NCBI GenBank assembly: GCA_002633005.1
Contig: NMRA01000128.1
Span: 793,482 to 857,481, forward strand
DNA from: Phoronis australis
Lineage: Eukaryota > Animalia > Phoronida
Reading direction: 5' to 3'
DNA: 64,000 bases
Part shown: positions 56,201-57,385 of the stretch, one piece after another
Position numbering within the stretch: position 1 is the stretch's first letter
Layout of the letters: the number at the start of each line of letters is the position of its first letter
Program-made: the position numbers and the translations under genes
The notes under the pieces: generated by a model
Told to the model about the DNA's origin: nothing
What the model saw: only the letters and a program-made list of their open reading frames with translations
The model's database searches: none

Positions 56201-57385
56201 GATTTGGGCAACTGAACGAAGGACTGCTTGATAAAAAGGTTTAATTGCTGGAGTATTTGTTAGAGCTGGGTCTGGGAAAAGTTAAAGACATCAGAAGCTT
56301 TCTAAGGTATCACTCTATGCTCAAAAGGTACTTATATCAACATGACTTTAATGGTTTAATCAGTGTGGGGCATAATTCGCTTTAAAGTTTCCGGCGTATG
56401 GAGGGCATATGGCTATGCCCATGCAATTGTTGTGAAGCGTGACTTCCGGTTGTCACCACACGTACAGTCAGATAAAGCCTCTCTAAGCCGCTTGCCAAGT
56501 GGCTTAGAGAGGTTTAGATGCTTGACTGTCGCTCGTGCAACCCAGGTTCAAGTCTTGGTCATTACGAAATTTTCTACATTGGCGCCCAACTAAGGAAAAA
56601 TCCACGTCTAACCCTGAGATTAAGAGCGGCGGACGGAGACGGTGTGACCTGGTACTGGTGGATTCAGAACACAAAAGAGAGCGTTGCTGAGGTCGAATTC
56701 CAGGACGCTAGGGTGTTGCTGAGATCTACACGCCAGGGAGCGCGCCTGTACCACGGAAGGGGGAGTAGTGTTGTGAAGCGTGACTTCCGGTTGTCACAAC
56801 ACGTACACTCAGATAAAGCCTCTCTAAGCAGCTTGCCAAGTGGCAATTGCCTCTTNGTGTAATTCTCTTGGCTCCCCTGACCACACCCACCAGAGCGAAC
56901 CTGCCAGACGGCCATTTCCAAGCATCAGGATACCCACAGAGCACTGTGGCACCAAAGAAAATTGGTTACCTTTTCATGCCCAAAAAAGCTCTGGGATCCC
57001 GGTCTATGAAGTGATTATTATCATTATTTGAGTAAATTTGCCAAGTTTACGCTGGTATTCACAATTCGCGTTTACACCATCTTGAGATAAAGTGGAATAT
57101 CAAGCACAGCATTTTGACGGCAAAATACGGATTTATAGTCGCTTAAACTCCTACAAATTTACCGGAAATTGATTGTCTGTCTGAAGTGAATCAGCAAAAC
57201 TGAACCGGCTAAACTATAAGTGGCAATATAAGCGCTTTATAAAATTTAAACATTGGAATTATTCGTTGTATATGCTATTAAATAAGCCATTAGACAAATC
57301 TTGATATCTTTAGATGGAATTAAAACCAAGAACATTTCAAAAATGCAAAAAATTAGTGAACAATAAAAAACACAGAGCCTACCAT
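47210..57385 (-). CDS. PSMC1: 26S proteasome regulatory AAA-ATPase subunit 4 (Rpt2)
   Basis: Exons: 57385-57383 (probable ATG-only, ACCATG|GTAGG), 55629-55576, 54998-54902, 54407-54283 (duplicate at 53622-53498), 52808-52623, 52219-52091, 51858-51673, 51066-50966, 50398-50302, 49988-49779, 47344-47210. MGQNQSG N-terminus, Walker A GAPGTGKT, Walker [28 protein letters not shown]-terminal HbYX tail GLYL. Confidence 0.97.
47455..49020 (+). mobile_element. Helentron/DINE-like (HINE) element with ~150-bp internal repeats, each carrying a CTCF-consensus motif
   Basis: GGAC-type microsatellite at ~48950 and a terminal hairpin-like end at ~48988-49018. Eight CCACTAGRDGGCRY motifs. Related inverted copies at 60180-60510 and 27537-27860. 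Confidence 0.75.
53498..53622 (-). other. PSMC1: Second copy of a PSMC1 exon within a ~387-bp duplicated block (53297-53683 = 54082-54468); likely an allelic assembly overlap
   Basis: The block is near-identical at an offset of 785 with only two visible intronic substitutions. Copy 1 ends exactly at the N at 53684. Confidence 0.8.
56428..56844 (+). mobile_element. TRIM-like miniature LTR retroelement with a tRNA-like segment in the LTR
   Basis: 5' LTR 56428-56578 (TGT...ACA), PBS TGGCGCCCAAC at 56580-56590, 164-bp internal region, PPT GGAAGGGGGAGTAG at 56755-56768. The 3' LTR from 56769 matches for 76 bp and is lost just before the N at 56856. Confidence 0.75.

What the first reader, a model, noticed from the sequence alone, without database searches (positions are those of the whole stretch)
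56428..56856. Miniature LTR retroelement whose LTR contains a tRNA-like Pol III unit (Cassandra analogue)
Seen: a 151-bp TG...CA LTR, a PBS matching the 3' end of tRNA-Lys (TGGCGCCCAAC), a 164-bp internal region with no recognisable gag/pol, a PPT, and a second LTR start with 3 mismatches in 76 bp. The distal half of the LTR has an A-box-like TGGCTTAGAGAGG, a 5-bp T-arm with B box (CCAGG-TTCAAGT-CTTGG) and a T4 run. Known: plant Cassandra TRIMs carry 5S rRNA Pol III promoters in their LTRs. Inference: this may be an animal TRIM using a tRNA-derived internal promoter; I do not recognise it as a described family. Caveat: the 3' LTR stops at about the point where the tRNA-like part begins, 12 bp before an assembly N, so that part is seen in one LTR only.
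Basis: partly seen in the sequence, partly recalled or inferred. Interest (0 to 1): 0.8.

Follow-up and report, generated by a model that had tools for sequence, protein, structure and literature searches.

The report
Helenus-type mini LTR retrotransposon, new family
This is one damaged copy of a small, gene-less jumping element whose end repeats carry a tRNA look-alike that likely acts as its promoter; this kind of element was described in 2024 as Helenus, so it is a further family and not a new kind.

Summary
The element is real and multi-copy. Intact copies are about 520 bp: two 163-166-bp TG...CA LTRs, a tRNA-Lys(CTT) primer site, a polypurine tract and 4-bp target duplications (8 of 14 two-LTR insertions exact; control 0.9%). 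A tRNA-like A box and B box sit in both LTRs in 12 of 14. This is the definition of animal Helenus (Kojima 2024, PMC10886601); the family is not found by seven motifs in that paper's sequence file. The scan has noted Helenus on other genomes before.

The 3' LTR follows the family right up to the N.

Extras: a second tRNA-Lys-complementary site follows the primer site; one insertion carries 43 of 45 nt of the tRNA's complement, mismatched at position 58, as expected from copying the primer; a young Gypsy with the same primer and 4-bp duplication exists in the genome. Pol III transcription was not shown.

The parts
56428..56578 (+). 5' LTR, TG...CA, 151 bp (family norm 163-166 bp; 12 bp shorter because of the patch below)
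56475..56515 (+).
   Evidence: (I19)
56504..56510 (+). 7-nt inverted patch (inferred template switch) in place of 19 family nucleotides that hold most of the real A box
   Evidence: alignment to copy L003; same orientation in no other copy found; not shown to be spanned by a listed contig
56511..56566 (+). remaining tRNA-like segment of the 5' LTR, with B box at 56545-56554
   Evidence: best score against 13 host tRNA types 30 versus shuffled mean 20.1, p=0.007
56570..56573 (+). T4 run near the LTR end (possible weak Pol III terminator)
   Evidence: present in the last 16 nt of 78 of 92 LTRs
56580..56590 (+). primer-binding site, 11 nt complementary to tRNA-Lys(CTT) 3' end
56599..56626 (+). 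second tRNA-Lys(CTT)-complementary site (T-stem 5' strand to anticodon loop; 23 of 24 nt, 4-nt insertion)
   Evidence: score 36 versus 17.0 +/- 2.7, 0 of 300 shuffles
56579..56768 (+). non-coding internal region, 190 bp
56755..56768 (+). polypurine tract abutting the 3' LTR
56769..56855 (+). 3' LTR, first 87 bp, cut off at the N (56856); right end and TSD of this copy are missing
   Evidence: family reads continue with the A box after 56855 (table 5c)
55630..57382 (-). host context: first intron of a proteasome AAA-ATPase gene (PSMC1-like, name recalled); the element lies antisense in it
   Evidence: spliced RNA loose ends at 55575 and 55630; GT/AG contexts; Pfam PF16450 in a downstream exon

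Best explanation
It is a truncated, A-box-less copy of a roughly 520-bp non-coding LTR retrotransposon family of the Helenus type, likely transcribed by RNA polymerase III from the tRNA-like unit in its LTR and likely copied in trans by a Gypsy element. Shown: two LTRs with tRNA-like A and B boxes, tRNA-Lys(CTT) PBS, PPT, TG...CA ends, 4-bp TSDs, solo LTRs, about a hundred or more LTR copies. Inferred steps: (1) TFIIIC-type recognition of the boxes starts an RNA near LTR position 70-80; (2) polymerase reads through the A-flanked T4 at the end of the 5' LTR and stops in the 3' LTR; (3) the RNA is packaged by Gypsy Gag; (4) tRNA-Lys(CTT) anneals at the 11-nt PBS and probably at the second site 8 nt downstream, and primes minus-strand DNA, the PPT primes the plus strand; (5) Gypsy integrase inserts the DNA with a 4-bp duplication; (6) LTR-LTR recombination leaves solo LTRs. 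The window copy would be transcriptionally dead from its own promoter because its 5' A box is gone.
For: Multi-copy: 57 matches from 40 of 230 candidates scored; 102 matches to the 20-nt A-box context at up to 1 mismatch, reversed control 0. TSD: 10 of 17 two-LTR calls exact at 4 bp, none at 5-7 bp; 8 of 14 after dropping two duplicated insertions and one false end; 14 of 36 LTRs classed as solo; cross-pair control 0.9%. Boxes: A box within 1 mismatch in 32 of 41 and B-box core in 33 of 41 LTRs not chosen by the A-box pattern; both boxes in both LTRs in 12 of 14 (two of the 14 came from the A-box search). tRNA likeness: scores 40 and 43 against shuffled best of about 20, 0 of 300 shuffles; U3 control 18, p=0.82. 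Primer use: insertion L019/L077 carries the tRNA's complement over 45 nt (43 of 45 in L077) with the mismatches at tRNA positions 58 and 57; m1A58 is the known stop or read-through point of plus-strand synthesis (PMC13191261, passages). Helper class present: L177 is a 6.1-kb element with 292-bp LTRs differing at 2 sites, the same PBS, a 4-bp TSD and protease-RT-RNaseH-integrase order. Published match: PMC10886601.
Against: No Pol III transcript seen: in three RNA runs 81-87% of laid reads run on into unrelated sequence, depth over the internal region is 1-20 against up to about 260 over the LTR, and no read starts pile at the predicted start. The A box is no better conserved than U3 (0.92 versus 0.91-0.94). 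ARAGORN and Rfam call no tRNA in the window or in 30 and 15 loci, and no donor tRNA was identified among 13 types. L177 shares no sequence with the TRIM beyond the PBS, so the helper family is not identified. The T4 in the 5' LTR must be read through. The read-through PBS is one event (L019 and L077/L128 share a flank).
Confidence: 0.9

Rival explanations
1. The element is a TRIM transcribed by RNA polymerase II from U3 or from host promoters; the tRNA-like segment is a passenger left by an old SINE insertion and is no longer a promoter.
For: A box not more conserved than U3; T4 before the PBS in 78 of 92 LTRs; RNA reads look like host transcripts carrying LTRs; the paper itself has no experimental proof for Helenus promoters.
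Against: Both boxes and tRNA-like spacing (45 nt from A-box T to B-box T) are kept across three LTR end types while the sequence right after the B box varies (0.74); a second, more diverged family in the genome keeps the same layout; 9 of 11 5'-truncated copies begin near the predicted tRNA start.
Confidence: 0.2
2. The repeats are a tRNA-derived SINE or a chance tandem duplication, not an LTR element.
For: The genome holds an abundant tRNA-derived SINE-like family (711 pattern matches).
Against: TG...CA ends, PBS, PPT, fixed 4-bp TSDs around both two-LTR and solo copies, no tail; the SINE-like repeats seen have a different head and body.
Confidence: 0.01
3. The odd 5' LTR of the window copy (inverted patch) is an assembly error at a hairpin and not a mutation.
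For: The copy sits between two very high-copy repeats and ends at an N; no listed contig is shown spanning 56495-56520 (table cut).
Against: The patch has the signature of a template switch in a quasi-palindrome with re-entry at a short identity; other copies also break or invert at LTR positions 58-104; the left junction is backed by a contig with 0 differences (56202-56453).
Confidence: 0.1

Closest known systems
Animal Helenus (TRIMp3), Kojima 2024, Biology 13:119, PMC10886601; closest in PBS to bivalve Helenus-3_ArIr, Helenus-1_BaPl, Helenus-1_MyCo and wasp Helenus-2_EuAn
   Same: TRIM under 1 kb, tRNA-like A and B boxes in both LTRs (TRGCY...YGG, GGTTC), T-run after the B box, PBS TGGCGCCCAAC followed by TAA, G-rich PPT ending GGGGGAGTAG (as in Helenus-3_ArIr), 4-bp TSD, solo LTRs, no functional tRNA.
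   Different: Different sequence: seven family motifs give 0 hits in the paper's supplement (lines wrap at 70 letters, Repbase itself not searched); no listed animal family has LTR 163-166 with internal 189-191. A box reads TGGCCGAATGG where the published consensus sequences seen mostly read TAGCTCAG. A long second tRNA-Lys site, read-through PBS and fold-back copies are not discussed in the paper's main text.
Cassandra (plants) and Ajax (nemerteans), as described in PMC10886601
   Same: Non-autonomous LTR element with a small-RNA-derived Pol III promoter in the LTR.
   Different: They carry 5S rRNA sequence; here no 5S match was found by Rfam and the boxes are tRNA-type; Ajax makes 5-bp TSDs.
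Drosophila gypsy primer binding (Gabus et al. 2006, PMC1635307, passages)
   Same: 11-nt PBS for tRNA-Lys,2 plus a second site complementary to the anticodon and T stems.
   Different: There the second site is 11 nt and lies near the genome's 3' end and was dispensable; here it is about 24 nt and lies 8 nt after the PBS.

Membership tests
Helenus (animal) | TRIM shorter than 1000 bp with two LTRs and no coding capacity | tested here: met
   Two-LTR-556 bp, most 504-527; internal region 190 bp, too short for gag/pol.
Helenus (animal) | tRNA-derived sequence with boxes A and B inside both LTRs | tested here: met
   12 of 14 insertions have both boxes in both LTRs; similarity to host tRNAs above 300 shuffles. 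The window copy itself lacks box A in the 5' LTR and is cut before it in the 3' LTR.
Helenus (animal) | PBS complementary to a tRNA 3' end just after the 5' LTR | tested here: met
   11 nt to host tRNA-Lys(CTT), 1 nt after the LTR.
Helenus (animal) | PPT just before the 3' LTR | tested here: met
Helenus (animal) | 4-bp target-site duplication | tested here: met
   8 of 14 independent two-LTR insertions and 14 of 36 solo-class LTRs exact at 4 bp, none at 5-7 bp; control 0.9%. Not testable on the window copy, whose right end is missing.
Helenus (animal) | tRNA-like part is not a functional tRNA | tested here: met
   ARAGORN 0 genes in 30 loci; Rfam no tRNA match; no full cloverleaf in the 12 folds.
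Helenus (animal) | Mobilised by a Gypsy element sharing the primer | tested here: inconclusive
   A young Gypsy with the same PBS and 4-bp TSD exists but shares no other sequence.
TRIMp3 (Pol III-driven TRIM) | Transcription by RNA polymerase III from the LTR | tested here: inconclusive
   RNA-seq reads are dominated by LTRs inside other transcripts; library type is unspecified and not built to map starts.
Cassandra / Ajax | 5S rRNA-derived sequence in the LTR | tested here: not met
   No 5S match in Rfam scans.

The most novel reading that the evidence does not exclude
Broken copies of this family record its replication cycle: 9 of 11 copies that lack the start of the 5' LTR begin at LTR positions 58-86, around the predicted tRNA +1 (position 80), and several carry an inverted R-U5 arm joined at the palindrome just upstream of it, one integrated with a 4-bp TSD (L015). 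If these arise from minus-strand strong-stop DNA ending at the RNA's 5' end, they are the first sequence evidence that a Helenus is transcribed from its tRNA-type promoter, and together with the split tRNA-Lys site and the m1A58 read-through copy they outline how a Pol III RNA is reverse transcribed by a Gypsy machine, possibly in a host group not yet listed for Helenus.
Probability: 0.3. Interest if true: 0.42.

Novelty: new member of a known kind. Interest (0 to 1): 0.22.

Why it matters
The kind is known, so the finding mainly adds a family (and a second, older one in the same genome) to the Helenus catalogue and to repeat annotation, where such LTRs can be mistaken for SINEs or tRNA pseudogenes. 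The open question left by the 2024 paper is whether Helenus LTRs really are Pol III promoters; this family offers a predicted start site, a natural A-box-less copy and RNA-rich material in which that can be tested.

Tried and rejected
ARAGORN on the window and 30 loci and Rfam on the region, 15 loci and one LTR found no tRNA or 5S gene; the best hit on the LTR alone was E=0.4. The donor tRNA could not be named: best partners differ by copy (Pro, Arg; only 13 host types were in hand); a GTC triplet sits at the anticodon position but tRNA-Asp was not fetched. No indexed RNA holder was listed; three raw RNA runs of the same species label were laid instead and did not resolve a start. DNA contigs did not bridge the N at 56856. 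A search for another element with the same PPT-LTR junction found 1 match, no more than the control's 2. Of 79 CA-PBS matches, 30 were viewed and 20 regions (one a repeat); only one coding LTR family turned up. No similarity between the TRIM and Gypsy L177 outside the PBS. Internal-region folding is below shuffles in 3 of 7 copies only (z -3.0 to -3.4; others 0 to -0.7), so no conserved packaging hairpin is claimed. The abundant SINE-like family does not look like the source of the LTR unit on inspection. The scan's notes held nothing similar by sequence. The clustering of 5' breaks is not taken as proof of a start site because 3' LTR breaks fall in the same hairpin-rich zone (66-104 in 7 copies).

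Full report
Observation. The window holds a 151-bp TG...CA repeat (56428-56578), an 11-nt PBS (56580-56590), a 190-bp internal region ending in a PPT (56755-56768) and a second repeat from 56769 that differs at 3 of the first 76 bases. The PBS is complementary to the 3' end plus CCA of tRNA-Lys(CTT); 5 of 6 loci found with a tRNA-end pattern hold such a gene by ARAGORN. The element lies antisense in the first intron (55630-57382) of a proteasome ATPase gene: RNA reads join the ATG exon to the exon at 55629, the splice contexts are GT and AG and a later exon matches PF16450. It is inserted in a high-copy palindromic repeat and followed, after the N, by another high-copy repeat.

It is a family. 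A search of the own genome (498 Mb) gave 57 matches from 40 of 230 candidates scored, and the 20-nt A-box context occurs 102 times at up to one mismatch, against 0 for the reversed control. In 90 fetched loci I found 92 complete LTRs and 17 two-LTR arrangements. Typical copies are 504-527 bp with LTRs of 163-166 bp and an internal region of 189-193 bp; the two LTRs of a copy are 84-98% identical. Ten of the 17 have an exact 4-bp duplication and none has one of 5-7 bp; after dropping two duplicated insertions (L011, L016) and one false end (L005) it is 8 of 14 exact and 11 of 14 within one mismatch. Among 36 LTRs classed as solo (a class that includes a few mis-sorted or repeated rows) 14 are exact. 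Mismatched left-right pairs agree in 0.9% of 2756 cases.

The tRNA-like unit. In the family the A box reads TGGCCGAATGG at LTR position 87-97 and the B box starts at 130. Among 41 LTRs chosen without regard to the A box, 32 have it within one mismatch and 33 have the B-box core; 12 of 14 two-LTR insertions have both boxes in both LTRs (two of these 14 came from the A-box search). The distal LTR scores 40 and 43 against the best of 13 host tRNA types, above all 300 shuffles, while U3 does not. No program calls it a tRNA. The A box is not more conserved than U3, so selection on the promoter is not shown.

Its A box (56500-56512) is the arm of a hairpin: 7 bases copied from the opposite arm replace 19 family bases, including most of the true A box. 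It is seen in 1 of 92 LTRs; the other genome matches to this motif that I could place lie on the antisense strand of U3. And the 3' LTR follows the family for 87 bases up to the N (84 of 87 identical to L003); family contigs and reads go on from there with the A box. So the window copy is atypical and lacks a complete promoter in either LTR.

Priming. After the PBS and an 8-nt A-rich spacer, 23 of 24 bases (with a 4-nt insertion) are complementary to tRNA-Lys(CTT) from the T-stem to the anticodon loop: score 36 against 17.0 +/- 2.7, 0 of 300 shuffles; none of the other 12 tRNA types passes. The site is strong in the 163-bp subfamily (30-36) and weaker in the others (10-25). One insertion, present twice (L019, L077), has instead the continuous complement of the tRNA's last 45 nt, with differences at tRNA positions 58 and 57. 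Plus-strand synthesis normally stops at m1A58 and sometimes reads past it (PMC13191261, passages), so this copy is best read as a fossil of the primer being copied. It is a single event. A second tRNA-Lys,2 site against the same stems is known in Drosophila gypsy (PMC1635307, passages).

Helper. L177 is a 6.1-kb element with 292-bp LTRs that differ at 2 sites, the same tRNA-Lys PBS, a G-rich PPT, a 4-bp TSD and a pol frame with RT, RNase H and integrase in Gypsy order. It shares no other sequence with the TRIM. It shows that a suitable machine exists; it does not identify the helper.

Expression. Three RNA runs under the same species label gave 355, 370 and 54 reads on a full copy at 85% likeness; depth is high over the LTR, low over the internal region, 81-87% of reads run on into unrelated sequence, and no start pile appears. 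This fits LTRs carried in host transcripts and says nothing for or against a short Pol III RNA.

Broken copies. Of 27 PBS-anchored insertions (repeats and one spurious row dropped, one ambiguous copy, L111, left out), 16 have a whole 5' LTR and 11 do not; 9 of the 11 begin at LTR positions 58-86, near the predicted tRNA +1 at 80. Four (L012, L015, L018, L030) have an inverted copy of the LTR's distal half in place of U3; L015 has an exact 4-bp TSD around the whole structure, the other three do not. In L018 and L030 the inverted and direct arms differ in subfamily-type bases, which suggests two templates. This may map the RNA's 5' end, but 3' LTR breaks fall in the same hairpin-rich zone (7 copies at 66-104), so a DNA-level hot spot explains it as well. 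The window's patch is in the same zone.

Comparison with what is known. I recalled the name Helenus and confirmed it by search. I read parts 1-5 of 6 of the main text of PMC10886601, parts 1, 10 and 11 of 11 of its supplement and searched the rest by motif. Helenus is defined there as a TRIM under 1000 bp with tRNA-derived sequence in its LTRs; animal families make 4-bp TSDs, often use tRNA-Lys(CTT), and are thought to depend on Gypsy; Pol III transcription is stated to be unvalidated. Every structural criterion is met here. The PBS with its TAA extension and the PPT end match bivalve and wasp families. Seven family motifs give no hit in the supplement, so the family itself seems unlisted; Repbase and Dfam were not searchable. 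A search for Helenus or TRIMp3 from 2024 on listed 15 of 21 papers, three of which are transposon papers that mention the term (one checked by passage) and none of whose titles reports a test of the promoter. Other windows of this scan reached the same Helenus reading on other genomes; I saw those notes after my own reading was fixed.

Verdict. Real, correctly sensed as a tRNA analogue of Cassandra, but already described as a kind. New member of a known kind; interest 0.22. The priming fossils and the clustered 5' breaks are the parts worth a specialist's look.

Noticed in passing
L080, L081, L082, L089, L204, L205 (around the PBS match): A second, more diverged Helenus-like family: related LTR with the same palindrome before the A box, B box GGTTCGAAAC, tRNA-Lys PBS followed by AAC/AAT, PPT and a second LTR about 175 bp on in L080.
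   Followed up: partly
L177:802-6896 (also L178-L180, L068-L072, L079): Young Gypsy family with tRNA-Lys(CTT) PBS, 292-bp LTRs, 4-bp TSD, PNMA-like gag and protease-RT-RNaseH-integrase pol in overlapping frames.
   Followed up: partly
L172-L176, L159-L161: Abundant tRNA-derived SINE-like repeat of about 210 bp (most of 711 pattern matches), with its own A and B boxes and an A/T-rich tail.
   Followed up: no
L012, L015, L018, L025/L030: Copies with an inverted distal LTR arm in place of U3, giving TGTAG...CTACA ends; L015 has a 4-bp TSD.
   Followed up: partly
family LTR positions 73-82; supplement of PMC10886601: A 10-11-bp palindrome sits just before the A box here (GGCAATTGCC) and in nemertean Helenus-1_LiLo and Helenus-1_NGe (GGGAAATTCCC): possibly a shared feature at the start site.
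   Followed up: no
window 56157-56427 and 57860-58770: High-copy palindromic (MITE-like) repeat family; the element is inserted in one copy, and several other element copies also lie in or beside it.
   Followed up: no
window 53345-53725 and 54130-54534, minus strand: One exon of the proteasome ATPase gene with its flanks appears twice, next to an N at 53684: probably an assembly duplication.
   Followed up: no
window 56857-57006: Very high-copy 150-bp repeat directly after the N; it may have interrupted the 3' LTR or mark a collapsed join.
   Followed up: partly
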